Source: a virus. From it: a DNA stretch of 39,323 bases. Positions 1-39,323 of the stretch are shown here, in pieces. The first letter of the stretch is position 1, and each line of letters begins with the position of its first letter. Under the pieces are notes generated by a model. That model did not search any database. It saw nothing but the letters and a program-made list of their open reading frames with translations, and was not told where the DNA came from. The position numbers were made by a program, and so were the translations under genes. Location: positions 1 to 39,323 of the IMG/VR virus record IMGVR_UViG_3300045201_000011; one strand, 5' to 3'.

Positions 1-127
1 AAGTGGGTAACTATGCATTAGTGGATAGATTAAAGCTGTAAGAAAAGGCCGGAGATTTACCATCCCGGCAACGTGGTAACTTCAATCTATTCACTAGTGG
101 AAATGTCGATGACGGTCTTTTAAGTCC
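1..127. repeat. Left copy of an exact 127-bp duplication of the window ends (identical to 39197-39323)
   Basis: Direct comparison: aagtgggtaactatgcattagtgg...gacggtcttttaagtcc occurs at 1-127 and at 39197-39323 with no mismatch. Confidence 0.95.
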
Positions 128-258: not shown

Positions 259-1383
259 TTAAGCGGCGAACTTTTTAATCACGTCTAGCTCTTCCGGCGA
301 GAGGCTGGAAAGCATTTCTTTGAGGGCTTCCAAGCGGCTTGGCTGGGAAGGCTTAGGCTTATTTTCCATACGCTGAATTGCGCCGTCCAGATCATCACTG
401 AACAAGTGAATGTAGCGCTGGGTGACCGTCATAGTTGAGTGACCGGCAAGCTTCTGGATGACTGCCGCGTTCTCTCCCTTGGAAGCGAGACGTGAACAAA
501 ACTCGTGACGCATCACATGAGGAACGAATTGTTTGTCATGTTCCAGACCGAGAGTTTCGGACATGCGGCCCCAGTAGTGTGCAACCTGATTCTTGTTCAA
601 GTTTGGAAACACTTCACGACCGGCCAGCTCATCCCTACGGCGCACCAAGATTGCTTTAGCGCGTTCCGTGAGGGGCACTGTGCGGCTCTTCCCTGACTTG
701 CTGCGCTGACCGGCTGCACCAGCTCCCCAAACCGTCACACGACCATCTTGAGCATCGTCGTGATTAAGCGCTAGGACTTCCCCTTGGCGCATTCCGGTAT
801 CGACCGAGAGAATCACATAGTCCTGCATGTCCTGATGCGAAATTCGCTCAAAGAATGCCAAGACCAGTTTTTCTTCCTTATCGGTGAAGCGTCTAACGCG
901 ATGTTCGCTTTCCTTGTAACGCGCAAATTTAGGCTTGCGGTCAACAATTCCCAGCTCTTCGGCCTCCGTCATTGAACGCGAGAGCGCCGCAATCTTGCGG
1001 TTAACAGTGCCCGGAGCATTTCCATCAGCGAGCAAACGTGCCCTCGCCTTGTCAATGTCAGACTTAGTGAGCTTGGCGATAGGAAGGTTTGAGCCAATGA
1101 TCGAAATGATCGACTGGGCATTAATGAGCTGCTTGTCGCCTGACGGCATCGGTGCCCAGTGAGTATCGTAGACGTACTGCACAAGCTCAGCGAGAGTAAA
1201 CGGCAAATCGCCTTTCCTCTTCACAACGCGCTCACCCATATCGATAGGCTCGCCTTTAATAAGCTTGGTTTGTGTCTCCAGCTCCCACAGACTTGCTTCC
1301 TGCTCATTGGTGAAGCTTCGCCTGTATCTCTTCCCCTTAAAATTGACAGTCCCTTCCCAAGAAGAACCCCTTGGTTTTGCCAT
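259..1383 (-). CDS. int: Tyrosine recombinase / phage integrase
   Basis: 374-aa ORF. Catalytic signature is visible: TGMRQGE (Arg), HVMRHEF (H-x-x-R), GHSTMTVTQRYIH (His...Tyr). Lies next to a tRNA gene. Confidence 0.9.
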   Translation of the reverse strand: MAKPRGSSWEGTVNFKGKRYRRSFTNEQEASLWELETQTKLIKGEPIDMGERVVKRKGDLPFTLAELVQYVYDTHWAPMPSGDKQLINAQSIISIIGSNLPIAKLTKSDIDKARARLLADGNAPGTVNRKIAALSRSMTEAEELGIVDRKPKFARYKESEHRVRRFTDKEEKLVLAFFERISHQDMQDYVILSVDTGMRQGEVLALNHDDAQDGRVTVWGAGAAGQRSKSGKSRTVPLTERAKAILVRRRDELAGREVFPNLNKNQVAHYWGRMSETLGLEHDKQFVPHVMRHEFCSRLASKGENAAVIQKLAGHSTMTVTQRYIHLFSDDLDGAIQRMENKPKPSQPSRLEALKEMLSSLSPEELDVIKKFAA

Positions 1384-1429: not shown

Positions 1430-1516
1430 GCCCGCATGGTGAAACTGGTAAACACTGCGGACTTAAAATCCGCCGCCCGTTTGGGCTTGCCGGTTCAAGT
1501 CCGGCTGCGGGCACCA
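1430..1516 (+). tRNA. tRNA-Leu (anticodon UAA), type II, 87 nt, CCA encoded
   Basis: Manual cloverleaf. Acceptor GCCCGCA/TGCGGGC; D stem GTG/CAC with a GG loop. Anticodon stem GCGGA/TCCGC with loop CTTAAAA (anticodon TAA). Long variable arm GCCC-GTTT-GGGC; T arm GCCGG-TTCAAGT-CCGGC. Discriminator A, then CCA. Confidence 0.85.
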
Positions 1517-1993
1517 TCAAACTGGCGATGTTTTCCCGCGTGTAGTCTTAGGTGCTTCGGATGCTGCCGCTGCTGCTTCCTCATGCATTCGCTCAATCTC
1601 AAGGCGAGCATCTGTTTCTTTATCGATTGAATAATCAGGATTGATTGTCCGCATCAGCTTCGTGATGAACGCCTTCCCCTCAGCGGTGAGAAAAACGAGA
1701 CGGCGTCGAGGTTCCCTAGGGTCAATAACCGCTTCCATAAGGTTTAACCCCGGCTTGCCCAAGCGGTGATATTTACTCATCGCCTGAACATTTCGAGAGA
1801 TTGACGATTGCGACAAGCCCGTGAGCTTTGACAGTTCATTCATCGTCAATCCCGGCTTACTGACAACACAGAGCAGAATATCTGCTTGCTGTATTGGCAT
1901 ATCAGGAGAGAGCTTGCGTAGAAGTCGAATAGCGTTCGCCATGACGAAAGTTACATCGTCACTTTTCCCTACCAAAAGTTCGCGCTTATCCAT
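1517..1993 (-). CDS. MarR-type winged-helix transcriptional regulator (candidate prophage repressor)
   Basis: ORF track gives 1517..2050. Start trimmed to ATG 1993 (MDKRELLV...) with GGAG 9 nt upstream. wHTH core LTMNELSKLTGLSQSSISRNVQAM...RRRLVFLTAEGKAF. The stop codon abuts the tRNA 3' end. Confidence 0.65.
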   Translation of the reverse strand: MDKRELLVGKSDDVTFVMANAIRLLRKLSPDMPIQQADILLCVVSKPGLTMNELSKLTGLSQSSISRNVQAMSKYHRLGKPGLNLMEAVIDPREPRRRLVFLTAEGKAFITKLMRTINPDYSIDKETDARLEIERMHEEAAAAASEAPKTTRGKTSPV

Positions 1994-2035
1994 GTTTACT
2001 CCATCTATTCGCCTATGAGGAATTTCCCACAGGTG

Positions 2036-2064
2036 GATATATGGCCGCAAGAAGGTAATGTCTA
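2036..2064 (-). promoter_or_regulatory. Sigma70-like promoter candidate for the MarR-type gene (TAGACA-N17-TATATC), overlapping a GTGGATA-box
   Basis: Minus strand reads TAGACA (2064-2059), a 17-nt spacer, then TATATC (2041-2036) followed by CACCTGTGG. Confidence 0.3.
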
Positions 2065-2107: not shown

Positions 2108-2413
2108 CTAATTCAAAATCTCTTCTAGCTGGACCGCTGATGTTGCGTCTGCAACTTCCTCCTGCTCCTGCATTAGTGGAAACCAGTGGGCAAGCAAGAC
2201 GATGAAAATCAGCGAGCCGAATACTGCTAAGCGCCCAAAAGGAAACGAGCGCTCAGATTCATTGTCACGGGAATTAGAAATGGTGAGCTGCAAGCGTCCG
2301 ATAAACACTTCGCAGTCGTTTTTATGTTTGATCAGGCCAAAACCTACCCATTCGCTGCGAATTTCAACGAAAATTTCCTTTTTGAAAGGAAGCTTGCACC
2401 AATAACCAAACAT
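2108..2413 (-). CDS. Hypothetical protein with one predicted transmembrane helix
   Basis: 101-aa ORF. ATG is preceded by TAGGGA. Hydrophobic segment LAVFGSLIFIVLLAHWF and an acidic C-terminus. Confidence 0.45.
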   Translation of the reverse strand: MFGYWCKLPFKKEIFVEIRSEWVGFGLIKHKNDCEVFIGRLQLTISNSRDNESERSFPFGRLAVFGSLIFIVLLAHWFPLMQEQEEVADATSAVQLEEILN

Positions 2414-2659: not shown

Positions 2660-2874
2660 TCTGTTCCACTCTTATCCACAGGAAATATGACAGTGATAAA
2701 CTGAAAACGTGGAAGCCCACGCTTATCAGCATGAATTGAGAAAAACTCATAACGTCAACATTTCCAATGAGTTACGATAAGCGAGGAATGCTTCCTCTGC
2801 ACAAACCAAAGGGCAGTTTGAGCGCCACCATGTCAGGAAACATGTCTGTTTCATCTGTTGAACTCCATCTTGCG

Positions 2875-2935
2875 CTGATCATCAGGCCACGGGCGCGACC
2901 CCATGGCGACCAAAGCAAAAACCTTGGTTTCACAG
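2875..2935 (-). ncRNA. Hammerhead ribozyme motif, type II, copy HH1 (stem II has a U-U at 10.1/11.1)
   Basis: Minus strand reads CUGU GAA ACCAAGG-UUUUUG-CUUUGGU C GCCAUGGG-GUCGCG-CCCGUGGC CUGAUGA UCAG. The core CUGAUGA, GAA, A15.1-U16.1 and GUC are all present. Confidence 0.55.
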
Positions 2936-2959
2936 TTGATTTTAATGGGTTTTCTTTCC

Positions 2960-2988
2960 TTGTCCGCTCAGTGATATGGGATTATGTT
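2960..2988 (+). promoter_or_regulatory. Sigma70-like promoter candidate for the plus-strand gene (TTGTCC-N17-TATGTT)
   Basis: TTGTCC at 2960-2965, a 17-nt spacer, TATGTT at 2983-2988, about 30 nt upstream of the AAGGA RBS and ATG 3021. Confidence 0.3.
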
Positions 2989-3020
2989 CCCACTGTCCGC
3001 TTACGCTAAGGAATTACGTC

Positions 3021-3299
3021 ATGAACCGAATCGAAGATGAGCTATGCTTCCGGGTAGACCAGTGGACGGATGATGGAAGCAGGATTGATTCCGTTCTATC
3101 GCTCTCAATGAATGCGCTGATTGCACAGGGGGCATTTTATGAGGCCGTTAAACTCCGTCCTCACAAGCGCTTGACCATGCGGCATAAGTCGCGAGTGATT
3201 AATGAGCATGTTCCTGAACGACTACGCTTAATAGACATTGAGAAACGCGCCGAGCTGGAGCGGATGATTGCGGAAGCAAAGAACGCCCGCAAGAAATAG
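3021..3299 (+). CDS. Hypothetical protein; the only plus-strand protein gene in the genome
   Basis: ORF track gives 2976..3299. Start trimmed to ATG 3021 (MNRIEDELCF...) with AAGGA 8 nt upstream. 92 aa. Confidence 0.55.
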   Translation: MNRIEDELCFRVDQWTDDGSRIDSVLSLSMNALIAQGAFYEAVKLRPHKRLTMRHKSRVINEHVPERLRLIDIEKRAELERMIAEAKNARKK

Positions 3300-3300
3300 C

Positions 3301-3358
3301 TGCTCATCAGGCCAAAGGCGCAACCCCATGGCGACCGGAGAAAGCCCCCGGTTTCGCA
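3301..3358 (-). ncRNA. Hammerhead ribozyme motif, type II, copy HH2
   Basis: Minus strand reads UGC GAA ACCGG-GGGCUUUCU-CCGGU C GCCAUGGG-GUUGCG-CCUUUGGC CUGAUGA GCA. Predicted cleavage is after C at 3333. Confidence 0.75.
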
Positions 3359-3380
3359 TTGTTCTGCATATGTGGATTAG

Positions 3381-4022
3381 TTAGTGCGAAAAAATTGCAA
3401 CGCCTGAGGGAACATCAATCACATTGTAATCGTGTTTAATGTCGCGGGCGTATGCTTCATAATCGAAATAATCGATTAGAAACTGGGGAATCTTGCCGTC
3501 TGATGAGTGGCAAGACATTTGTTCGTCTGCTGCATTATCTGCATACTCCCGGAAGCTCTCAGAGATGCAAATGAATTGGTTCTCCATAGCGTCCGAGGCG
3601 TCCTTGAGATTACCGAAGTCCTTGATGATCGCCTCTAAGTCTTCCGAGTCGTGGCTGTCATGCTCTTCTAGGAACTCGACATAATCAGCAATTGCTTGCA
3701 GGCCGGGATATTCCCCGAAGGTTGACGGCATGTCGTCATAATCATGAACTGCATATTCTTCCGCGCTCGCTACCCTACCAGAACCGATGCATTCGGGACA
3801 TTCGCAAAGTCTCGTGTCACCTGTTTCGCTGTTATGGTGAGTGACTTTACCCTCACCTTCACAACGGACACATTTCACGGTCACGTTAGGAAACTTGCTT
3901 TCTCTGAGCATGGCGTTGACTTCATCCTGCATTTCATCAACGTCACTAGATGCTTCAACCCAGCGGCCATGCAGAACGCCGTTGTTATAAGATGCGAGAC
4001 AGGCAACGTAAAACCGAGCCAT
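3381..4022 (-). CDS. ardA: ArdA-family anti-restriction protein with an inserted double CxxCxGxG zinc-finger segment
   Basis: 213 aa. N-terminus MARFYVACLASYNNGVLHGRWVEA and ...EEYAVHDYDD..., a very acidic body and C-terminal YFDYEAYARDIKHDY fit my memory of ArdA. The insert is CVRCEGEGKV...CPECIGSGRV. Confidence 0.7.
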   Translation of the reverse strand: MARFYVACLASYNNGVLHGRWVEASSDVDEMQDEVNAMLRESKFPNVTVKCVRCEGEGKVTHHNSETGDTRLCECPECIGSGRVASAEEYAVHDYDDMPSTFGEYPGLQAIADYVEFLEEHDSHDSEDLEAIIKDFGNLKDASDAMENQFICISESFREYADNAADEQMSCHSSDGKIPQFLIDYFDYEAYARDIKHDYNVIDVPSGVAIFSH

Positions 4023-4126
4023 GATTAACCCCTTTGCGCTTGAAAATATATGTGATGAGGATTAATTGTGGGGAAGCCTCCGGCCTTATGACCGGAAGCC
4101 CCCTTGCGCTAGAGGGTTAAGAAAAG

Positions 4127-4157
4127 GGTCACAGTGATCGAGACTGTGGCCTTTTTT
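4127..4157. terminator. Bidirectional intrinsic-terminator-like hairpin between HH3 and ardA
   Basis: GGTCACAGT-gatcgag-ACTGTGGCC followed by TTTTTT on the plus strand and preceded by GAAAAG (CUUUUC after the stem on the minus strand). Confidence 0.5.
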
Positions 4158-4239
4158 CGTTTCCAGCGAAGGGTGATTGACCATGTGAACATGTCAAACT
4201 CCCCACAATATGCCCCTGTAACGTCGAGGCGTTCCGCGC

Positions 4240-4301
4240 TTGCTCATCAGGTTCTAGCCGCGACACTAGAACGACCAGAGGGAAGCCCCCCGGTTTCGCA
4301 A
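4240..4301 (-). ncRNA. Hammerhead ribozyme motif, type II, copy HH3
   Basis: Minus strand reads UUGC GAA ACCGGGGGG-CUU-CCCUCUGGU C GUUCUAG-UGUCGCGG-CUAGAAC CUGAUGA GCAA. Predicted cleavage is after C at 4273. Confidence 0.75.
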
Positions 4302-4322
4302 TGGTATGCATTGGTGGATTGA

Positions 4323-4846: not shown

Positions 4847-4860
4847 TTTGTTTCCCTTGG

Positions 4861-4910
4861 TTAGCGTTTAGGATGCTCCACAGTTCCCCGTGAAGGCACC
4901 TAAGGGCTAA
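4861..4910 (-). repeat. Structured 50-nt repeat, copy A (hairpin with GGAA tetraloop on the minus strand)
   Basis: 46/50 identical to 5105-5154. Minus strand reads CUUCACGG-GGAA-CUGUGGAG, flanked by UUAGG...CCUAA. Confidence 0.7.
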
Positions 4911-5087
4911 TCAGTAACCGGCCCACGTTCTCAGCGATGCAAAGTCCCCATCCCATGTGCCTGTAGTTTCACAGTGTTTTCCGTCTGCATTTGTGTAAGC
5001 ATCCTTGACTGTGATTGTGCCGTCCGCGTTATCGCTAATGAACCAATCATGTTGAGCGGCCCATGCGATTTGCTTCGTGTTCAACAT
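4911..5087 (-). CDS. Hypothetical 58-aa protein (below the ORF-track cutoff)
   Basis: Hand translation: MLNTKQIAWAAQHDWFISDNADGTITVKDAYTNADGKHCETTGTWDGDFASLRTWAGY. GAGGA RBS 7 nt upstream. Confidence 0.55.
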   Translation of the reverse strand: MLNTKQIAWAAQHDWFISDNADGTITVKDAYTNADGKHCETTGTWDGDFASLRTWAGY

Positions 5088-5104
5088 TCCGTTTTCCTCA
5101 TCAG

Positions 5105-5154
5105 TTAGCGTTTAGGATGCTTCACGGTTTCCCATGAAGGCACCTAAGGGCTAA
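5105..5154 (-). repeat. Structured 50-nt repeat, copy B (hairpin with GAAA tetraloop on the minus strand)
   Basis: Minus strand reads CUUCAUGG-GAAA-CCGUGAAG, flanked by UUAGG...CCUAA. Sits directly upstream of the RBS of ORF 4911..5087. Confidence 0.7.
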
Positions 5155-5945
5155 GCCCTAACCTGCATTGATATGCAGTAGTGGATAGAATGTAGTCCTA
5201 TTCAATTGTCAAAGAACTCAGAGGCTTAGCCCCTGCCCTTCCCGGCGTTTGCCGTTCGGTGATTTGGTTTATATCCACTAGTGCATAGATACGCAATAGC
5301 GAAAATGAAAAAATAGACACGCTATCCATCTTTTTTGGATAAGTGCCTGAATTTATTGAAAAGGAAATGCCACAAGCCCGCCACATGGGAACATGAAGAC
5401 GGCTAATGTTAGCGCCTTGAGGTGGCTTGAGGGCGACCAGTGGCGGCATGAGGTGGCGAAAAGGGCAGACGTGGAGACACTGAGACACGCACAGAAAGCC
5501 ACAAGCCTGCCCGCCTGCATTGCATCGGAAGCACTAGCGGAAGCCTTGAGCCTGCCCCCCGGTGATGCTCAGTCTCTTTGAAGTCCAGCAAATGCAGGGC
5601 TTACGGGAAACGTGTGGCGGATTTAGTGGCAAACGTGTGTGCCCGCGAGCCTTTACCGCGCACAGTGAGCGCCTGCTCGTGCCTTTCACCGCGCCCCCAC
5701 GGGGGGTACGCGCGCTGCCCCTCTATCGATTGCCGCCTCGGATTTTTTCGGGGAAATAGCCGCTACCCTTAGGGCATCACAAAGCATCCCTCAGGTTGAC
5801 TCAGGGAAGCTCGTGGGAAGCGGAGAAGCTCTAGGGTGAAGGAATGTAATAGGTGAACCTCAAGGCTCTCTGTGAGTCTCTGAGGCTGATTGTAGGTATT
5901 GACTTTCCCTACGAAGGCGTAAGCCTGAGAAGGGAAAGGGCGATC
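5155..5945. other. Long non-coding, short-repeat-dense region (candidate genome-end / concatemer-junction and early control region)
   Basis: No convincing ORF. Short direct repeats: GCCACAAGCC(C/T)GCC x2, GAGGTGGC x2, AACGTGTG x2, CCTTT(A/C)ACCGCGC x2, GGGAAGC x2. GC hairpin CCCCCACGGGGG. Confidence 0.5.
5184..5212 (-). promoter_or_regulatory. Candidate host-type early promoter (TTGACA-N17-TCTATC), overlapping a GTGGATA-box
   Basis: Minus strand has a perfect TTGACA (5212-5207), a 17-nt spacer and TCTATC (5189-5184). It faces the early small ORFs and ardA. Confidence 0.4.
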
Positions 5946-6386: not shown

Positions 6387-6404
6387 CTATGGTGAGGGGT
6401 AATT
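6387..6404 (-). promoter_or_regulatory. Phage RNAP promoter P1 (AATTACCCCTCACCATAG)
   Basis: 18/18 to the in-window consensus. Lies between the large-terminase stop and the Rap1a-like gene. Confidence 0.85.
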
Positions 6405-6452
6405 GGTTTGGCGAAAAAATAGGCAGGAGCAATGAATGCTCCCACCTAAATG

Positions 6453-8141
6453 CTAGTTAAGCCAGCCGCTTTCGTCCTTGCTATCGTGCCCACGATTACG
6501 TTGTACGAGGTCCATGAACTCCTGCAAGGCTTGGTCCCTCAAGTTCTCCACATGCTCGTCATGGGCCTTCTCTGTGTCTCTCGCCATGCTTTCAGCCCAG
6601 TAGCCTACAGCCATCGCCAACACGTCAAGACGGTCATCCTTAGCTAGAGAGCCACGGTCACGGGTGATGCGAGAGAGCTGATACATGAGCTGACGCTGAG
6701 GTTCAGCGGTCATCTTATGGTCAACCTCAATGACCTTCTGATCGAACACAAGCCGGTGCTGATTCATGATCGGCTCAAGGGTGTCGCATATGCGGCGTTC
6801 TTTCTGCTGACTGTGCTTCACCTCCTCTATACCTACAGCATAGATTCGGGACACGATTGGCTTGAGAAGCTGCGTGAACATGCCATCACCGAAGTTAGCT
6901 TCGACAATGATCTTGTTAACGCTGTGCGTCTTAGCCAGGACTGCCAGCCCCTTGAGGGTTGCTTCGCTGTAACCTTCCTTGAAGCCGCCTGATGCGACAA
7001 CGAAGAGGAAGCCATTAAGCTGCTTTACGATAGCGTAAGCGGTTTCGTCCTTGCCACGTCCTGAGGGGTCAATTGCCATGACACAACCGGAATACTCGGT
7101 CATCTCGTTCGATACCCACATAGGACGGAAGTAGGCATCGCCATTCAAGCCGACCATTGGAAGGTCGAGACGCTTATCAATATCCGAGGTCCAGACAAGC
7201 TTCACAGGCGCCATACGAGGGTCAAGCGAGGTAACCATAAGGTCACGGAACTTGAGCGGGTAGCGGTCCTGATCTGAGAGAGAGGTATCAAGCATGAACT
7301 GGAGAGCGAAGCCTGATCGACCATACGATGCTTCACGTTCCTGCAAGTCGAGGTCATGGAAGCGCTTCGGGTCAACTGGAGTACCTGCCCCCGCACCGTT
7401 CATAATCAACTGACTAACGAACGGAGCCAAACGTCCAAGGTACTTATCGGGATTTTCAGGGATACGGGCAGGCCAGACACGGATTTCATAGCCACGTTCA
7501 GGAAGTCGGTTATAAATCGACATTTCCGTCTGAGGCGTTCCGAGATAGATCACTCGGCCTCCGGGCTTTAGAACCGCGTCGAACTCCTTAATTCGCTCGG
7601 CCAACAAATCTCGCATCGTCGCGGTCATCGCATTGTTCAAGCTTTCAACGTCATCAGCAATGATCACGTCCGCACGAGAGCCGGTTAGCTGGCCGGTAAT
7701 GCCCACAGACTTAACCGAGGGCGACTGCGAAGCGCCTGCCGGTCCTACGTCAAAAGCAATATTACTATCACGCTGGCCTTTCCCCGGCTTGAGGTGAGCC
7801 AATATAGGCATCTCGGCAATCAGTCGCTTCGTGAATGTCGAGAACGCATCAGCGCGGTCTTTTGCAGCCGATACGACCATAATGTTGAGCTGAGGATTAT
7901 TTAGGAGCAGCCAACAAACGAAGGCACTTGTTACCCAGCTCTTACCTACGCCACGGAAGGCTTGAATGACGGAGCGCTTTGGCCCCTTCTGGAGATACTG
8001 AGCCATGTCATATTGCGTATCGGTTGGCTCGGGGAGATTAAGGTGCTGCCAGACTAGGAAGAGGAAGTTCCTGAAATCACGGCGCACGGGGTCGATTGGC
8101 GTCAAGCTCGTACTTGAAGCGCCATTAGATTGTACGTTCAT
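6453..8141 (-). CDS. Terminase large subunit (T7 gp19-like)
   Basis: ORF track gives 6453..8198. Start trimmed to ATG 8141 (MNVQSNG...). Walker-A-like FRGVGKSW, plus position and size typical of T7-type maturase B. Confidence 0.85.
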   Translation of the reverse strand: MNVQSNGASSTSLTPIDPVRRDFRNFLFLVWQHLNLPEPTDTQYDMAQYLQKGPKRSVIQAFRGVGKSWVTSAFVCWLLLNNPQLNIMVVSAAKDRADAFSTFTKRLIAEMPILAHLKPGKGQRDSNIAFDVGPAGASQSPSVKSVGITGQLTGSRADVIIADDVESLNNAMTATMRDLLAERIKEFDAVLKPGGRVIYLGTPQTEMSIYNRLPERGYEIRVWPARIPENPDKYLGRLAPFVSQLIMNGAGAGTPVDPKRFHDLDLQEREASYGRSGFALQFMLDTSLSDQDRYPLKFRDLMVTSLDPRMAPVKLVWTSDIDKRLDLPMVGLNGDAYFRPMWVSNEMTEYSGCVMAIDPSGRGKDETAYAIVKQLNGFLFVVASGGFKEGYSEATLKGLAVLAKTHSVNKIIVEANFGDGMFTQLLKPIVSRIYAVGIEEVKHSQQKERRICDTLEPIMNQHRLVFDQKVIEVDHKMTAEPQRQLMYQLSRITRDRGSLAKDDRLDVLAMAVGYWAESMARDTEKAHDEHVENLRDQALQEFMDLVQRNRGHDSKDESGWLN

Positions 8142-8169
8142 ATCGGTGCCTAGGAGACTCCGTGGATAG

Positions 8170-8205
8170 CAAAAAAGGCCAGACAGGTGATTACCCATCT
8201 GGCCT
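8170..8205 (-). terminator. Intrinsic-terminator-like hairpin between the small and large terminase genes
   Basis: Minus strand reads AGGCCAGA-loop-UCUGGCCU followed by UUUUUUGC. Confidence 0.5.
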
Positions 8206-20787: not shown

Positions 20788-20806
20788 TTATCCACAAGTG
20801 GATTAG
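20788..20806. promoter_or_regulatory. Palindromic GTGGAT-box pair containing a perfect DnaA-box sequence (TTATCCACA)
   Basis: TTATCCAC-AA-GTGGATTAG read directly. Lies between the capsid stop and the terminator. Confidence 0.4.
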
Positions 20807-25248: not shown

Positions 25249-25266
25249 CTATGGTGAGGGGTAATT
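25249..25266 (-). promoter_or_regulatory. Phage RNAP promoter P2 (AATTACCCCTCACCATAG)
   Basis: 18/18 to consensus. Heads the structural (late) gene block. Confidence 0.85.
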
Positions 25267-25846
25267 AGAAGCGGGTAACAGCTTCGGAGACGGAAGCTTC
25301 AAGATCATCGATAGTCCCGTCATTGATTAGCGCCTTGTCAAAGGCATGATTTGAAAGGAGACCTTCCGAGGGGTGACCTGATACTGAGATTTCCACGCGT
25401 GGGTTGTAGATGCACCAAGCTTCTCCACCCATGGATTTAACAAGGTCGTACTCATTCGGGAAACGAAGGTCGTCAATGACCACTCGCTTGCCCTGCTCCA
25501 CAATCTTGCGGGCTTTACGGGCTGCTATGGTCGTCCAAAGGTTCGGGTCGATATTGGCCCGTCCCCATTCAACGCCAAGCGTCTGCATGATTTTACGGGT
25601 GGTGAGGTTATCAAAGCCAAACTCAGTGAGGGGTTCTTCCTTCCGGTGCCCCTCAACAAAATCTTCGAGCTGGTCTTTCGGTACGCCGATCTGTTCAAGG
25701 AAGCAGCGTGTCATGGCCTTCAATGGGTCAGCGAACTTCACGTTCTGAAAACCCAGCCCCTTGGTGAGGAACTGGGTTGCCGTTGACTTTCCCATCTGTG
25801 CCGCTGGTGAGTAAAAGGCAATCAGACTGGGGTTTTTGGTGTCCAT
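25265..25846 (-). CDS. P-loop dNMP-kinase-like protein
   Basis: 193 aa. P-loop SPAAQMGKST and the VIDDLRFPNE motif are recalled from phage deoxynucleoside-monophosphate kinases. Confidence 0.5.
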   Translation of the reverse strand: MDTKNPSLIAFYSPAAQMGKSTATQFLTKGLGFQNVKFADPLKAMTRCFLEQIGVPKDQLEDFVEGHRKEEPLTEFGFDNLTTRKIMQTLGVEWGRANIDPNLWTTIAARKARKIVEQGKRVVIDDLRFPNEYDLVKSMGGEAWCIYNPRVEISVSGHPSEGLLSNHAFDKALINDGTIDDLEASVSEAVTRF

Positions 25847-29426: not shown

Positions 29427-29496
29427 GGTGCTGTCCTCTCTCAGGAGTGACGCCTCACAGGAATGCACCTGTGAAGCTATATGCATTAGTGGATGA

Positions 29497-29949: not shown

Positions 29950-29979
29950 GAGTTTGTTTCCATATGTGGATAGATTAAA

Positions 29980-32494: not shown

Positions 32495-32512
32495 CTATGG
32501 TGAGGGGTAATT
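32495..32512 (-). promoter_or_regulatory. Phage RNAP promoter P3
   Basis: 18/18 to consensus. Overlaps the stop codon of ORF 32511..32834. Confidence 0.85.
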
Positions 32513-32834
32513 AGTCGTTCAGTTTATTACGCTGGACGAAACGCCTCGCTCTTCGAACGAAGTGATACTTTCGAGTATCAATACGTCGGACATGCTTTCG
32601 AATGAGCGGAAGAGGAGGAAGCTCGTGGGTAACGCGACTGAGCGCTTCAAGTGAGTCAGCAATAAACTGAGCCAGACATTGAATGAGCGCTATGATGATC
32701 AACGGAAAGAAGATCAAAGCACATGTCACTGTCAATGCTATGATGCTCAACCGCAAAGCAATGTAGGGTAATATGGCGCGTCTTAGATGACGGTACTTCC
32801 TCATTACTTGCACGTCCTTGAAGAGGTTACTCAT
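32511..32834 (-). CDS. Membrane protein translationally coupled to the amidase (holin-like candidate)
   Basis: 107 aa. Hydrophobic stretch ILPYIALRLSIIALTVTCALIFFPLIIIALIQCL and a highly basic C-terminus. Its ATG overlaps the amidase stop. Confidence 0.45.
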   Translation of the reverse strand: MSNLFKDVQVMRKYRHLRRAILPYIALRLSIIALTVTCALIFFPLIIIALIQCLAQFIADSLEALSRVTHELPPLPLIRKHVRRIDTRKYHFVRRARRFVQRNKLND

Positions 32835-34665: not shown

Positions 34666-34683
34666 CTATGGTGAGGGGTAATT
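34666..34683 (-). promoter_or_regulatory. Phage RNAP promoter P4
   Basis: 18/18 to consensus. Overlaps the stop codon of ORF 34682..35128. Confidence 0.85.
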
Positions 34684-35128
34684 AGACGCTTGCGCTCTCA
34701 CCAAAGGATTGATTTGCGATAGTGACCACATCAAGTGGGTCAGAGAATTGGTTTCCCTTCCGACCTGCCATGAGGCTCCTGACCACGATGGAGAATGCCC
34801 ATACTTGAGAGCTGACTGAGCGGTGCTTTTTGAGCTGGTAATCGTGCCCCCGGAAATCCTTATTTGTGATTAGGTCGAAGGCTAGTTCGTCGTTAACGTC
34901 CACTTCAAAAGCGGTTCCGCCAACCAGCTTGAAACCGATCGAAGTAATCTCACCGATCACTGCGCCTCCACCTCCTCGGTAGGAAGTACCCCAAGCCACC
35001 TTCGTACCTACCTTGAGCGGCTGGCCGGTACGGTCGAGGATGGATGAGTTGTCAGGAGTGTATACATGCTTATCCGTTGCGGCCACGCGATAGCGCTTGC
35101 CGTCAATTTCAGTGATCTTGAATGACAT
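34682..35128 (-). CDS. Hypothetical protein
   Basis: 148-aa ORF in the class II region. No motif recognised. Confidence 0.5.
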   Translation of the reverse strand: MSFKITEIDGKRYRVAATDKHVYTPDNSSILDRTGQPLKVGTKVAWGTSYRGGGGAVIGEITSIGFKLVGGTAFEVDVNDELAFDLITNKDFRGHDYQLKKHRSVSSQVWAFSIVVRSLMAGRKGNQFSDPLDVVTIANQSFGESASV

Positions 35129-36039: not shown

Positions 36040-36057
36040 CTATGGTGAGGGGTAATT
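36040..36057 (-). promoter_or_regulatory. Phage RNAP promoter P5
   Basis: 18/18 to consensus, just downstream of the RNAP gene (the phi-1.1 position in T7). Confidence 0.85.
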
Positions 36058-36089
36058 CACCAGCGCAATTAAATGCACTGGTGGATAGA

Positions 36090-38728: not shown

Positions 38729-38746
38729 CTATGGAGAGGGGTAATC
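38729..38746 (-). promoter_or_regulatory. Phage RNAP promoter-like site P6 (16/18), 60 nt upstream of the RNAP start codon
   Basis: Minus strand reads GATTACCCCTCTCCATAG, with two mismatches to consensus. Confidence 0.55.
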
Positions 38747-38768
38747 AGGCAGCGCGTTTTGAGAGCTG

Positions 38769-38786
38769 CTATGGTGAGGGGTAATT
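38769..38786 (-). promoter_or_regulatory. Phage RNAP promoter P7, upstream of the RNAP gene
   Basis: 18/18 to consensus. Starts 2 nt after the stop of ORF 38789..39142. Confidence 0.8.
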
Positions 38787-38788
38787 GG

Positions 38789-39142
38789 TCAGTTGACCGT
38801 CAAAGCGCGTGTAATCTCGGCCTGTTTGCCGATCACATCACAGGCCCATGCGACTGCTTGAAAGCGTTCATCATTGGTGAAGGCTACTGCGTAACCTGTT
38901 CCTGCTTCGAGGTCGCTCCGAGTGACACGAGCGGTAAACCAATCAGGCAACCTATCGTAACGGTCGAGGAGGTATTTGCAGTGATGATCGAAGGTGTCGT
39001 CACGCCAGACTGACACGTCCAATTCGTAATAGAGATACGAGGTCCAGAGGAACATTTCGCATTGGCTTTTGAGGACTTTCTCCTCTGACCATCTATCGCT
39101 GTGGCGGAAGTATCCCTTCCCGTCCTTAATCCATTCCGTCAT
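38789..39142 (-). CDS. Hypothetical early protein (117 aa)
   Basis: ORF track gives 38789..39259. Trimmed to ATG 39142 (MTEWIKDGKG..., GGAG 9 nt upstream). The extended N-terminus would read through the GTGGATA-box and the end repeat. Confidence 0.5.
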   Translation of the reverse strand: MTEWIKDGKGYFRHSDRWSEEKVLKSQCEMFLWTSYLYYELDVSVWRDDTFDHHCKYLLDRYDRLPDWFTARVTRSDLEAGTGYAVAFTNDERFQAVAWACDVIGKQAEITRALTVN

Positions 39143-39196: not shown

Positions 39197-39323
39197 AAGT
39201 GGGTAACTATGCATTAGTGGATAGATTAAAGCTGTAAGAAAAGGCCGGAGATTTACCATCCCGGCAACGTGGTAACTTCAATCTATTCACTAGTGGAAAT
39301 GTCGATGACGGTCTTTTAAGTCC
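39197..39323. repeat. Right copy of the exact 127-bp end duplication
   Basis: Identical to 1-127. Indicates a circularly closed assembly or terminal redundancy. Confidence 0.95.

What the first reader, a model, noticed from the sequence alone, without database searches (positions are those of the whole stretch)
3301..3358. HH2: second type II hammerhead motif immediately downstream of ardA
The minus strand from 3358 to 3301 reads UGC / GAA / ACCGG-GGGCUUUCU-CCGGU / C / GCCAUGGG-GUUGCG-CCUUUGGC / CUGAUGA / GCA. The core nucleotides are identical to HH3, but stems I and III have completely different sequences that still pair (ACCGG/CCGGU versus ACCGGGGGG/CCCUCUGGU; GCCA.../...UGGC versus GUUCUAG/CUAGAAC). 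That is covariation between copies.

The motif sits between the convergent stops of ardA (3381) and the plus-strand ORF (3299).
Basis: partly seen in the sequence, partly recalled or inferred. Interest (0 to 1): 0.85.

Follow-up and report, generated by a model that had tools for sequence, protein, structure and literature searches.

The report
Known-type hammerhead ribozyme after ardA
The motif is a genuine self-cleaving type II hammerhead RNA just after a phage anti-restriction gene, but hammerheads flanking ardA in a related Agrobacterium prophage were already published and shown to cleave in 2011, so this is a new example of a known thing.

Summary
Window 3358..3296 (minus strand) is a complete type II hammerhead. 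It scores 45.7 bits against Rfam Hammerhead_II (gathering score 37, E 2.2e-6). The core is fully canonical and the predicted cut lies between C3333 and G3332.

Two sister copies lie on the same strand, at 4301..4234 and 2935..2869.

The host is a circular 39.2-kb T7-like temperate phage related to Rhizobium phage RHEph01.

Orthologous hammerheads sit directly after ardA in at least five other distinct prophage and metagenome lineages. Across 50 distinct family members the three helices are 95.6% paired, and 16 of 18 pairs show changes on both sides.

The convergent plus-strand ORF is a real, conserved 92-aa gene.

The kind is not new. Perreault et al. 2011 described three type II hammerheads flanking ardA plus an unknown gene, next to marR and integrase, in an Agrobacterium tumefaciens prophage. 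They showed cleavage in vitro and in E. coli.

Most likely role: cutting the polycistronic phage transcript into defined mRNAs, here forming the 3' end of a 940-nt ardA mRNA. This parallels RNase III processing of T7 early RNA.

Caveat: this copy has the weakest loop I/tail pseudoknot and stem I of its family, so it may cleave slowly.

Interest is low to moderate.

The parts
3296..3358 (-). HH2, the complete type II hammerhead. Stem II 3' strand 3358-3356; G12A13A14 3355-3353; stem III 3352-3334 (loop 3345-3341); C17 = C3333, cut between 3333 and 3332; stem I 3332-3311 (loop I 3324-3319); CUGAUGA 3310-3304; stem II 5' strand 3303-3301; 3' tail / pseudoknot partner 3300-3296.
   Evidence: Rfam RF02276 45.7 bits, E 2.2e-6. 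Own model R1 78.1 bits. Sequence read. Helix covariation.
3381..4022 (-). ardA, an anti-restriction protein of 213 aa. Its stop codon lies 22 nt upstream of HH2.
   Evidence: Pfam PF07275 E 9e-32 and PHROG 2059 anti-restriction. 276 homologues with E <= 1e-20, the closest named ones in Brucella/Ochrobactrum, Neorhizobium, Mesorhizobium and Agrobacterium pusense.
3021..3299 (+). orf92, a conserved 92-aa gene of unknown function, convergent with ardA. Its TAG stop (3297-3299) is the complement of the CUA in the HH2 tail. An AAGGA ribosome-binding site lies 8 nt before the ATG at 3021.
   Evidence: Homologues at 63-75% identity and 92-99 aa. Always antisense to the ardA direction in L058, L057, L038, L039, L047 and L050. 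No Pfam, PHROG, NCBIfam or PDB match.
4234..4301 (-). HH3, a sister type II hammerhead upstream of ardA. Cut between 4273 and 4272.
   Evidence: Rfam 43.4 bits; R1 77.5 bits.
2869..2935 (-). HH1, a sister type II hammerhead beyond orf92. Cut between 2908 and 2907. It has a U.U mismatch at 10.1/11.1 next to the core.
   Evidence: Rfam 37.3 bits, just above the gathering score of 37. The L058 orthologue has a canonical G-C at that position.
3363..3378 (-). Copy of a semi-palindromic motif, AAUCCACAUAUGCAGA (family consensus TATCCACTAATGCATA), that directly precedes HH2. A second copy precedes HH3 at 4320..4305.
   Evidence: Repeat families D4 and D9. The motif lies at fixed spacing before the HH2/HH3/HH4 orthologues in L058 and before both hammerheads in L054.
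4109..4192 (-). Conserved 27-aa ORF (MFTWSITLRWKRKKATVSITVTLFLTL, ribosome-binding site GGGGAG) in the 210-nt spacer between HH3 and ardA. It lies on the same 940-nt ribozyme-delimited RNA as ardA.
   Evidence: The spacer is 77-92% conserved at DNA level in 10 other loci. The peptide is conserved through conservative substitutions in L048.
6387..6448 (-). Strong intrinsic terminator after the terminase gene (6448..6420), followed by a phage-RNA-polymerase promoter-like site (AATTACCCCTCACCATAG, 6404..6387) pointing into the HH3-ardA-HH2-HH1 region.
   Evidence: Terminator scan, promoter repeat family D1/D3 with 7 copies, sequence read.

Best explanation
HH2 is a genuine type II hammerhead ribozyme encoded on the gene strand of a T7-like temperate phage.

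Proposed mechanism (cleavage and its consequences are inferred, not shown):
1. The long phage transcript through ardA is made. It could start from host promoters or from the phage-polymerase promoter at 6404..6387.
2. The RNA folds into stems I, II and III around the CUGAUGA/GAA core.
3. It cuts itself after C3333.

Together with HH3 (cut 4273/4272), this releases a 940-nt RNA carrying a 27-aa ORF plus ardA.
- Its 5' end would be a 5'-OH buried in the HH3 stem I hairpin.
- Its 3' end would be a 2',3'-cyclic phosphate right after the 7-bp HH2 stem III hairpin.
- Such ends should resist 5'-monophosphate-dependent RNase E entry, and 3' polyadenylation and exonuclease attack.

The cut also separates ardA from the next 425 nt, which run antisense to the convergent gene orf92 and end at HH1.

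Functionally this is the self-contained equivalent of the RNase III cuts that divide T7 early RNA into mono- and dicistronic mRNAs.

Shown here: the motif, its conservation, its covariation and its context. Inferred: cleavage in this copy, and the effect on RNA stability and expression.
For: Motif:
- Canonical core and type II topology.
- Rfam score above the gathering threshold, with two sister copies on the same strand.

Selection:
- In the closest relative, L058, TerL is 94.6% identical but ArdA only 59%.
- There, HH2 is an 87-90% identity island between flanks of about 50-55% identity.
- Stem I changes in L058 are compensatory: U.U to U-A, G.U to A-U, C-G to U.G.
- Family-wide covariation: 95.6% paired, 16 of 18 pairs changed on both sides, slid controls 36-42%.

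Recurrent position:
- A hammerhead lies directly after ardA in the window, L058, L054, L050, L074 and the L048/L049 and L052/L053 pairs.
- In N. galegae (L054) and in L062, the hammerhead tail runs straight into the ribosome-binding site of the next gene. That fits an intercistronic processing role.

Experimental precedent:
- The A. tumefaciens C58 triple hammerhead around ardA cleaves during in vitro transcription and in E. coli (PMC3088659).
- A primer for its first hammerhead shows the same stem I/loop I type as the copies here.

Against: - No cleavage data exist for this sequence.
- This copy has the poorest loop I/tail pseudoknot in the family: GC:GC, then U.U, then U-A and G.U, against 4-6 contiguous pairs in most members. 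Perreault et al. found that weakening this pseudoknot lowers the rate 20- to more than 100-fold at 0.5 mM Mg2+.
- Stem I carries a U.U and a G.U. A competing fold that breaks stem I and the core is 1 kcal/mol more stable than the hammerhead fold (-22.7 against -21.7). The orthologues keep stems I and III in their minimum-energy fold.
- No same-strand gene follows HH2 here, so the '5' UTR standardising' role seen elsewhere does not apply.
- The biological purpose of bacterial and phage hammerheads was still called unresolved in 2019 (PMC6765202).
Confidence: 0.75

Rival explanations
1. HH2 is a decaying or only conditionally active copy. It keeps the hammerhead sequence by descent from a duplicated HH1/HH2-type unit, but it cleaves poorly. 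Whatever it does (perhaps nothing) is not efficient RNA processing.
For: - Weakest pseudoknot class in the family.
- Weakened stem I and a slightly more stable competing fold.
- No downstream same-strand cistron to serve.
- The neighbouring HH1 already has a U.U mismatch next to its core.
- HH1 and HH2 share 84% identity over 45 nt, suggesting duplication (family D5).
Against: - Every core nucleotide and every core-adjacent pair is intact.
- The L058 orthologue, in the same arrangement, has a perfect 8-bp stem I and a 5-bp (one-bulge) pseudoknot. The differences between the two are compensatory, so selection on folding is ongoing.
- HH2 is a conservation island between diverged flanks.
Confidence: 0.12
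2. The hammerhead copies matter mainly as about 70-nt repeated boundary sequences. They would give homology for recombination, letting early-gene cassettes such as ardA be swapped between related phages. RNA cleavage would be secondary.
For: - The window and L058 are about 91-95% identical in integrase and terminase proteins but only 59% in ArdA.
- Nucleotide identity drops abruptly inside ardA, near 3873, and rises again at HH2.
- Genes between hammerheads differ from phage to phage. Perreault et al. made the same remark.
Against: - Recombination homology does not need a conserved catalytic core or compensatory base-pair changes, yet both are seen.
- The copies within one genome differ strongly in stem sequences, which lowers their use as recombination substrates.
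- Relatives cleave in experiments.
Confidence: 0.06
3. HH2 and HH1 work as a pair. They release a discrete 425-nt RNA (3332..2908) that is exactly antisense to orf92. It would silence orf92 during lytic transcription, or keep duplex RNA formed with orf92 mRNA from dragging the ardA and downstream mRNAs into RNase III decay.
For: - orf92 is real, and HH2 and HH1 flank it in both the window and L058.
- The HH2 tail overlaps the orf92 stop codon in both.
- The two half-ribozymes left on the fragment could pair through stem II (GCAG with CUGU; read).
Against: - In L057, L038, L039, L047 and L050, orf92 homologues are not flanked by hammerheads.
- Hammerheads follow ardA in loci where the next gene is on the same strand: L054, L048 and L052.
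- So HH2 tracks the ardA 3' end, not orf92.
Confidence: 0.06
4. A chance resemblance: two GC-rich hairpins between convergent genes that act as a bidirectional terminator and are not a ribozyme.
For: - The element lies between convergent stops.
- On the plus strand, the complement of stem III is followed by UUCGCAUUGUU, which is weakly terminator-like (read).
Against: - E 2.2e-6 against the Rfam model.
- All 13 core positions are correct.
- The same motif occurs three times on one strand.
- Orthologues with covariation exist.
- The terminator scan finds nothing at 3296-3360 on either strand.
Confidence: 0.01

Closest known systems
Triple type II hammerhead arrangement around ardA in the Agrobacterium tumefaciens C58 prophage (Perreault et al. 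2011, PLoS Comput Biol 7:e1002031, Figs 3, S2, S3)
   Same: - Three type II hammerheads on the gene strand flank ardA and a neighbouring gene of unknown function.
- marR and integrase lie downstream, and phage structural genes upstream.
- The host group is the same (Rhizobiales).
- The stem I/loop I type matches, judged from the published primer CTCGGTCGTCCTAGGGTC.
- The proposed role is the same: processing long phage transcripts.
   Different: - This is a different phage, a metagenomic circular contig. The primer sequence is absent from every locus fetched.
- Here the 'unknown gene' is shown to be convergent (antisense) and conserved.
- This HH2 copy has a weakened pseudoknot.
- I could not fetch the C58 locus to align it copy by copy.
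Rfam RF02276 Hammerhead_II (clan CL00010)
   Same: - Canonical core.
- Stems I and III capped, stem II open and only 2-3 bp.
- Conserved tail after stem II that pairs with loop I.
- Score above the gathering threshold.
   Different: - The local subfamily uses loop GUYGCG with tail GCGA or GCUA, instead of the Rfam consensus UGG loop with GCCA tail.
- Both types occur in ardA-linked prophages.
RNase III processing sites of the T7 early region (R0.3, R0.5 and others)
   Same: - The phage architecture is T7-like (single-subunit RNA polymerase, T7-type primase-helicase, capsid, tail fibre, terminase).
- Cuts lie between cistrons of a long transcript.
- The anti-restriction gene (0.3/ocr in T7, ardA here) is released as its own mRNA, ending in a hairpin.
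   Different: - The mechanism is RNA self-cleavage rather than a host protein enzyme.
- The products carry 5'-OH and 2',3'-cyclic phosphate rather than 5'-phosphate and 3'-OH.
- This is an analogy of function only, with no homology.
Synthetic ribozyme insulators (for example RiboJ) and natural 3'-UTR twister or hammerhead ribozymes
   Same: A self-cleaving RNA placed between transcription-unit parts gives each cistron a defined end, independent of its neighbours.
   Different: Those are engineered or reporter contexts (my own knowledge, and PMC6765202). Here the element is natural, and its effect on expression is untested.

Membership tests
Hammerhead ribozyme, type II (Rfam RF02276) | Conserved catalytic core: C3 U4 G5 A6 N7 G8 A9, G12 A13 A14, A15.1-U16.1, H17 | tested here: met
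   CUGAUGA at 3310-3304, GAA at 3355-3353, A3352-U3334, C3333.
Hammerhead ribozyme, type II (Rfam RF02276) | Standard base pairs directly next to the core in all three stems (10.1-11.1, 1.1-2.1, 15.1-16.1) | tested here: met
   G3303-C3356, G3332-C3311, A3352-U3334. These are the acceptance criteria stated by Perreault et al..
Hammerhead ribozyme, type II (Rfam RF02276) | Type II topology: stems I and III closed by loops, stem II open-ended | tested here: met
   Order along the RNA is II(3')-GAA-III hairpin-C17-I hairpin-CUGAUGA-II(5').
Hammerhead ribozyme, type II (Rfam RF02276) | Covariance-model score at or above the curated gathering score | tested here: met
   45.7 bits against 37; E 2.2e-6.
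Hammerhead ribozyme, type II (Rfam RF02276) | Helices supported by compensatory changes in relatives | tested here: met
   MAFFT alignment A2: 95.7% paired, 13 of 18 pairs changed on both sides, 0 of 500 shuffles as high, slid controls 33-48%. Alignment A5, 50 distinct sequences: 95.6% paired, 16 of 18. A5 is fitted to the model, so it leans towards the structure.
Hammerhead ribozyme, type II (Rfam RF02276) | Pseudoknot of 4 or more pairs between loop I and the tail after stem II. This is a majority feature, needed for fast cleavage at low Mg2+. | tested here: inconclusive
   The family covaries here: UCGC:GCGA, UAGC:GCUA, GUUGU:GCAAU, UGGU:GCCA. Mean best run is 4.18 against 3.75 +/- 0.11 for swapped partners. 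The window copy has only GC:GC, then U.U, then U-A and G.U. The L058 orthologue has 5 pairs with one bulge.
Hammerhead ribozyme, type II (Rfam RF02276) | Site-specific self-cleavage giving 2',3'-cyclic phosphate and 5'-OH ends | not testable with these tools
   Demonstrated only for relatives, the A. tumefaciens C58 triple arrangement, in vitro and in E. coli (PMC3088659).
ardA-linked multi-hammerhead cassette of Rhizobiales prophages (Perreault 2011) | Several hammerheads on the coding strand flanking ardA and a neighbouring gene | tested here: met
   HH3, ardA, HH2, orf92, HH1 in that order. The same order occurs in L058. ardA is flanked on both sides in L054, L074, L083 and L090.
ardA-linked multi-hammerhead cassette of Rhizobiales prophages (Perreault 2011) | Prophage context: structural genes, ardA, marR, integrase | tested here: met
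   Terminase 6453..8198, ArdA, MarR-type 1517..2050, integrase 259..1383. Integrated relatives lie next to host genes.
ardA-linked multi-hammerhead cassette of Rhizobiales prophages (Perreault 2011) | Sequence-level orthology with the published C58 hammerheads | tested here: inconclusive
   Only an 18-nt primer is available. It shows the same GUCCUAGG-GUC stem I/loop type but has no exact match in the fetched loci.

The most novel reading that the evidence does not exclude
HH2 and HH1 together excise a 425-nt RNA (3332..2908) that is precisely antisense to the conserved convergent gene orf92.

- It would carry a 5'-OH and a 2',3'-cyclic phosphate.
- Each end keeps half a hammerhead, and the halves can re-pair through stem II (GCAG with CUGU).
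- It could therefore persist as a stable antisense regulator, or even be ligated into a circle.
- That would switch off a lysogeny-expressed gene during lytic growth, or shield neighbouring mRNAs from duplex-triggered decay.
Probability: 0.06. Interest if true: 0.6.

Novelty: new member of a known kind. Interest (0 to 1): 0.25.

Why it matters
It adds a well-supported natural example to a class whose biological purpose in phages is still unsettled.

The example has three useful properties:
- The phage is clearly T7-like, and T7 early-RNA processing by RNase III is well characterised (PMC4858673). The hammerheads can therefore be read as a host-independent replacement for those cuts. This is directly testable by swapping the two.
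- The ardA cassette is a defined unit of 940 nt, bounded by two ribozymes.
- The copy itself has a naturally weakened pseudoknot, and its orthologue keeps it. This gives a ready-made pair for asking whether cleavage speed is tuned.

The finding does not change what is known about hammerheads.

Tried and rejected
- **Genome-collection scan with ArdA.** It returned only distant (23-32% identity) ArdA relatives, nearly all from gut Clostridia.
- **Near-identity search of 25 kb against the phage collection.** No related phage at DNA level. Identity had to come from protein searches.
- **Function of orf92.** Pfam, PHROGs, NCBIfam and a PDB profile search all came back empty. The AlphaFold model had mean pLDDT 61.8 from 6 sequences, too poor for a fold search, so none was run.
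- **A 20-aa ORF (3369..3307) and a 60-aa ORF (4311..4129) that start at the upstream motif's AUG and read through HH2 and HH3.** Rejected as regulators. The AUG is absent before the orthologues in L058 and L054, and the shared 'AKPG(A/G)F' is just the translated hammerhead.
- **A GCA...UGC mini-hairpin in the 5' flank that could sequester stem II (seen in the fold).** No covariation among copies. Dropped.
- **Promoter and terminator scan.** Nothing at HH2 on either strand.
- **Single-sequence folding z-score.** Uninformative (z 0.45), as expected for a three-way junction held by tertiary contacts.
- **Flanking by hammerheads as a general property of orf92.** Rejected. Five loci carry orf92 without flanking hammerheads.
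- **Metagenome pattern scan.** Most of the 31 hits were chance matches. Only 8 loci had model-confirmed hammerheads.

Full report
**1. The observation**

In standard hammerhead numbering:
- Core: C3-A9 = 3310-3304, and G12 A13 A14 = 3355-3353.
- Core-adjacent pairs: A15.1-U16.1 = A3352-U3334, G10.1-C11.1 = G3303-C3356, and 1.1-2.1 = G3332-C3311.

Stem III can extend to 7 pairs (3352-3346 with 3340-3334). Stem I has 8 positions, one of them a U.U mismatch and one a G.U pair.

A whole-window Rfam scan gives Hammerhead_II (RF02276) at 3359..3294 with 45.7 bits (gathering score 37, E 2.2e-6). Two more hits lie on the same strand, at 4301..4234 (43.4 bits) and 2935..2869 (37.3 bits). There is also one tRNA, which ARAGORN calls tRNA-Leu.

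The match is far beyond chance.

**2. Context**

The window is a circular or terminally redundant contig: bases 1-127 equal 39197-39323. A JGI metagenome contig spans that junction.

Every long gene lies on the minus strand, and the set is T7-like:
- single-subunit RNA polymerase
- T7-type primase-helicase
- family A DNA polymerase
- head-tail connector
- Gp10A-like capsid protein
- T7 tail fibre
- T7-type terminase

The nearest isolates are Rhizobium phages of the RHEph01 group, with TerL about 71% identical.

Downstream of the terminase come, in order:
1. a strong terminator (6448..6420) and a phage-polymerase promoter-like site AATTACCCCTCACCATAG (6404..6387), one of seven copies
2. small ORFs
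3. HH3
4. a 210-nt spacer
5. ardA (3381..4022; Pfam ArdA E 9e-32)
6. HH2
7. the plus-strand ORF
8. HH1
9. two small ORFs, a MarR-type regulator, a tRNA-Leu on the opposite strand, and an integrase

In integrated relatives the same order, from terminase through ardA and marR to integrase, ends at host genes. In the isolated phage RHEph01, this block is the left-end early region.

**3. The convergent ORF is real**

The plus-strand ORF has homologues at 63-75% identity and 92-99 aa.
- The likely start is the ATG at 3021, preceded by AAGGA.
- In L058, L057, L038, L039, L047 and L050 the gene always lies antisense to the ardA direction.
- No function could be assigned.
- Its TAG stop (3297-3299) is the complement of the CUA in the HH2 tail.

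**4. Relatives and covariation**

ArdA homologues at 54-66% identity lie in T7-like prophages of Brucella/Ochrobactrum, Neorhizobium and Agrobacterium pusense, and also in a Mesorhizobium MAG, Paracoccus and metagenomes.

Rfam and a model built here (R1) find hammerheads around ardA in many of these loci. Directly after the ardA stop, which is the HH2 position, a hammerhead is present in:
- the window
- L058
- L054 (N. galegae)
- L050
- L074
- the L048/L049 and L052/L053 pairs

L058 is the closest relative (TerL 94.6%, integrase 91%, but ArdA only 59%).
- It has the same order: HH3, ardA, HH2, orf92, HH1.
- In a nucleotide alignment, HH2 is an island of 87-90% identity between the ardA 3' half (about 50-55%) and orf92.
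- The stem I differences between the two HH2 copies keep or improve pairing: C-G to U.G, U.U to U-A, G.U to A-U.

Pair counts:

| Alignment | Sequences | Cells paired | Pairs changed on both sides | Slid controls |
|---|---|---|---|---|
| A2 (MAFFT) | 13 | 95.7% | 13 of 18 | 33-48% |
| A5 (model-fitted) | 50 distinct | 95.6% | 16 of 18 | 36-42% |

In both, no shuffle out of 500 reached the observed values. A5 is fitted to the model, so it leans towards the structure. The third stem II pair forms in only about half of the sequences, so stem II is effectively 2-3 bp, as in the Rfam consensus.

**5. The tertiary contact**

Perreault et al. showed that type II hammerheads use a pseudoknot between loop I and the tail after stem II. 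Weakening it slows cleavage 20- to more than 100-fold at 0.5 mM Mg2+.

In this family, loop and tail covary by type:
- UCGC with GCGA
- UAGC with GCUA
- GUUGU with GCAAU
- UGGU with GCCA
- GUUGC with GC-U-AAC

The mean best run is 4.18 pairs, against 3.75 +/- 0.11 when loops and tails are swapped between sequences.

The window HH2 falls in the weakest class. Its loop GUUGC against tail GCUAU gives C-G, G-C, U.U, U-A, G.U. The L058 orthologue (tail GCUAAC) can form five pairs with one bulge.

Nearest-neighbour folding adds to the caveat. For the window copy, a competing fold that breaks stem I and the core is 1 kcal/mol more stable than the hammerhead fold. HH3 and the orthologues keep stems I and III in their minimum-energy fold.

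I therefore expect HH2 to be active but slower than HH3. This is a prediction, not a result.

**6. Mechanism**

The hammerhead is on the sense strand of ardA, 22 nt after its stop, so it is part of the ardA transcript.
- Cuts at 4273/4272 and 3333/3332 would release a 940-nt RNA. It holds a conserved 27-aa ORF (4192..4109) and ardA.
- Cuts at 3333/3332 and 2908/2907 would release a 425-nt RNA antisense to orf92. Both spacings match repeat family D5.
- After cleavage, the ardA RNA would start with a 5'-OH inside the HH3 stem I hairpin. It would end with a 2',3'-cyclic phosphate one base after the HH2 stem III hairpin.

From established enzymology (my own knowledge):
- RNase E entry is stimulated by a 5' monophosphate on an unpaired end.
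- Poly(A) polymerase needs a 3'-OH.
- 3' exonucleases stall at terminal hairpins.

Such ends should therefore stabilise and insulate the message. That step is inference.

In loci where a same-strand gene follows (L054, L062), the hammerhead tail runs straight into the next ribosome-binding site. That supports a general intercistronic processing role.

The closest functional parallel is T7 itself. Its early precursor is cut by host RNase III at five sites into mono- and dicistronic mRNAs (PMC4858673). By my own knowledge, the 0.3 anti-restriction message is one of them. Here a T7-like phage uses self-cleaving RNA at equivalent boundaries.

**7. What is already known**

Perreault et al. 2011 (PMC3088659) reported the first natural type II hammerheads and their frequent linkage to prophages and integrases. 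They described a triple arrangement in A. tumefaciens C58 that flanks ardA and a gene of unknown function, with marR and integrase nearby.
- It cleaved during in vitro transcription and in E. coli.
- They also noted hammerheads upstream of ardA in Legionella.
- A primer for the first C58 hammerhead (CTCGGTCGTCCTAGGGTC) shows the same stem I/loop type as the copies here.
- No later paper in the searchable library links hammerheads with ardA.
- A 2019 review still calls the purpose of these bacterial and phage ribozymes unsettled (PMC6765202).

HH2 is therefore a new member of a known kind, found by the standard Rfam model.

**8. Rivals**

- **Relic or slow copy.** This cannot be excluded given the weak pseudoknot and stem I. 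The intact core, the compensatory changes against L058 and the conservation island argue for function.
- **Recombination boundary.** This is compatible with the mosaic ardA cassette, but it does not explain core conservation or covariation.
- **Dedicated antisense module for orf92.** This is weakened because five loci carry orf92 without flanking hammerheads, and because hammerheads follow ardA regardless of the next gene's strand.
- **Chance or terminator.** Excluded.

**9. Verdict**

Novelty is low: a new member of a known kind. Interest is 0.25. The by-products listed separately may be more interesting than the finding itself: a contig with 22 hammerheads, the motif that precedes the hammerheads, and the conserved 27-aa ORF.

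Noticed in passing
L062 (metagenome contig VFSW01021964.1) 1297-8159, minus strand: 22 Hammerhead_II hits above the Rfam gathering score (47.5-65.9 bits) in one 8.5-kb contig, one every 170-520 nt. Minus-strand ORFs of 60-155 aa fit exactly between successive ribozymes, and the ribozyme tails run into GAGG-type ribosome-binding sites. Essentially every intergenic spacer is a hammerhead. None of 10 ORFs tested has a Pfam match. This is far denser than the published double and triple arrangements. L083 has 5 copies and L081 has 3.
   Followed up: partly
window 3378..3363, 4320..4305, 5187..5172, 5287..5272, 2182..2167, 103..88, 27..12 (= 39223..39208), 20804..20789, 29495..29480, 29972..29957, 36087..36072 (minus strand): A semi-palindromic 16-21-nt motif, (UAAUC)UAUCCACUAAUGCAUA, with 11 or more copies, all in intergenic positions. 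It usually begins 2-10 nt after a stop codon. At 29495 its AUG is the DNA polymerase start. It directly precedes HH2 and HH3 here. The same AUCCAC-N3/4-GCAUA lies at fixed spacing before the HH2/HH3/HH4 orthologues in L058 and before both N. galegae hammerheads, but not before HH1-type copies. It could be an operator for the phage MarR or winged-helix protein, or an RNA-level signal. Unresolved.
   Followed up: partly
window 4233..4023 (minus strand), ORF 4192..4109: The 210-nt spacer between HH3 and ardA is the most conserved DNA in the region. It is 92% identical to L058 and 77-85% to L057 (which lacks ardA), L039, L047, L038, L052/L053, L054, L048/L049 and Rhizobium phage RHEph01, while ArdA itself is only 54-66% identical. 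It encodes a 27-aa basic/hydrophobic peptide, MFTWSITLRWKRKKATVSITVTLFLTL, with a strong ribosome-binding site. The peptide is conserved through conservative substitutions in the A. pusense-type prophage and is followed by a GC-rich hairpin. RHEph01 annotates a longer gp003 there.
   Followed up: partly
window 2935..2869 (HH1): HH1 has U10.1 opposite U11.1 (CUGAUGA-U... / ...U-GAAAC), a mispair next to the core that Perreault et al. used as a rejection criterion. It scores only 37.3 bits. Its L058 orthologue has the canonical G-C and a 5-bp pseudoknot (44.2 bits). The window copy may be impaired.
   Followed up: partly
window 38795..38769, 38755..38729, 36066..36040, 34692..34666, 32521..32495, 25275..25249, 6413..6387 (minus strand): Seven copies of AATTACCCCTCACCATAG, a T7-promoter-like sequence (compare TAATACGACTCACTATAG) and presumably the promoter of the phage's own RNA polymerase. 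The copy at 6404..6387 follows the terminase terminator and points into the hammerhead/ardA region. That region may therefore also be read by the phage polymerase, like T7 phiOR.
   Followed up: partly
window 1-127 and 39197-39323: An exact 127-bp repeat at the two ends of the window, so the true unit is 39,196 bp (an assembly overlap of a circular contig, or terminal redundancy). A 4.4-kb JGI contig (L046) spans the junction.
   Followed up: yes
window 1430..1516 (+), between the MarR-type gene and the integrase: A complete tRNA-Leu (anticodon UAA) on the strand opposite all phage genes. A tRNA lies at the same place in RHEph01 (L001), L046, L048, L052, L054, L058 and L074. It is likely tied to the integration site, but this was not examined.
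   Followed up: no
window 4860-4922 and 5104-5166: A 63-nt direct repeat (87% identical) in the small-ORF region upstream of HH3. Nature unknown (family D6).
   Followed up: no
L048 5731-5804 and 6261-6328; L052 4743-4816 and 5271-5338; L054 5427-5499; L001 (RHEph01) 2883..2806: A second hammerhead subfamily occurs in ardA-linked prophages. It has loop I UUGGCAUG pairing with a UGCC tail, and an extra U between CUGAUGA and stem II (CUGAUGA-U-GGC). The RHEph01 copy has CUGACGA and scores below the Rfam threshold (28.4 bits). RHEph01 also has two sub-threshold type III-like hits.
   Followed up: partly
L039 1765-1881 (minus strand): An ALIL pseudoknot (RF01497, 112 bits), the frameshift element of IS3-family insertion sequences, lies in the early region of one related viral contig. 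This indicates an IS insertion. L054 likewise has a DDE transposase between terminase and ardA.
   Followed up: no
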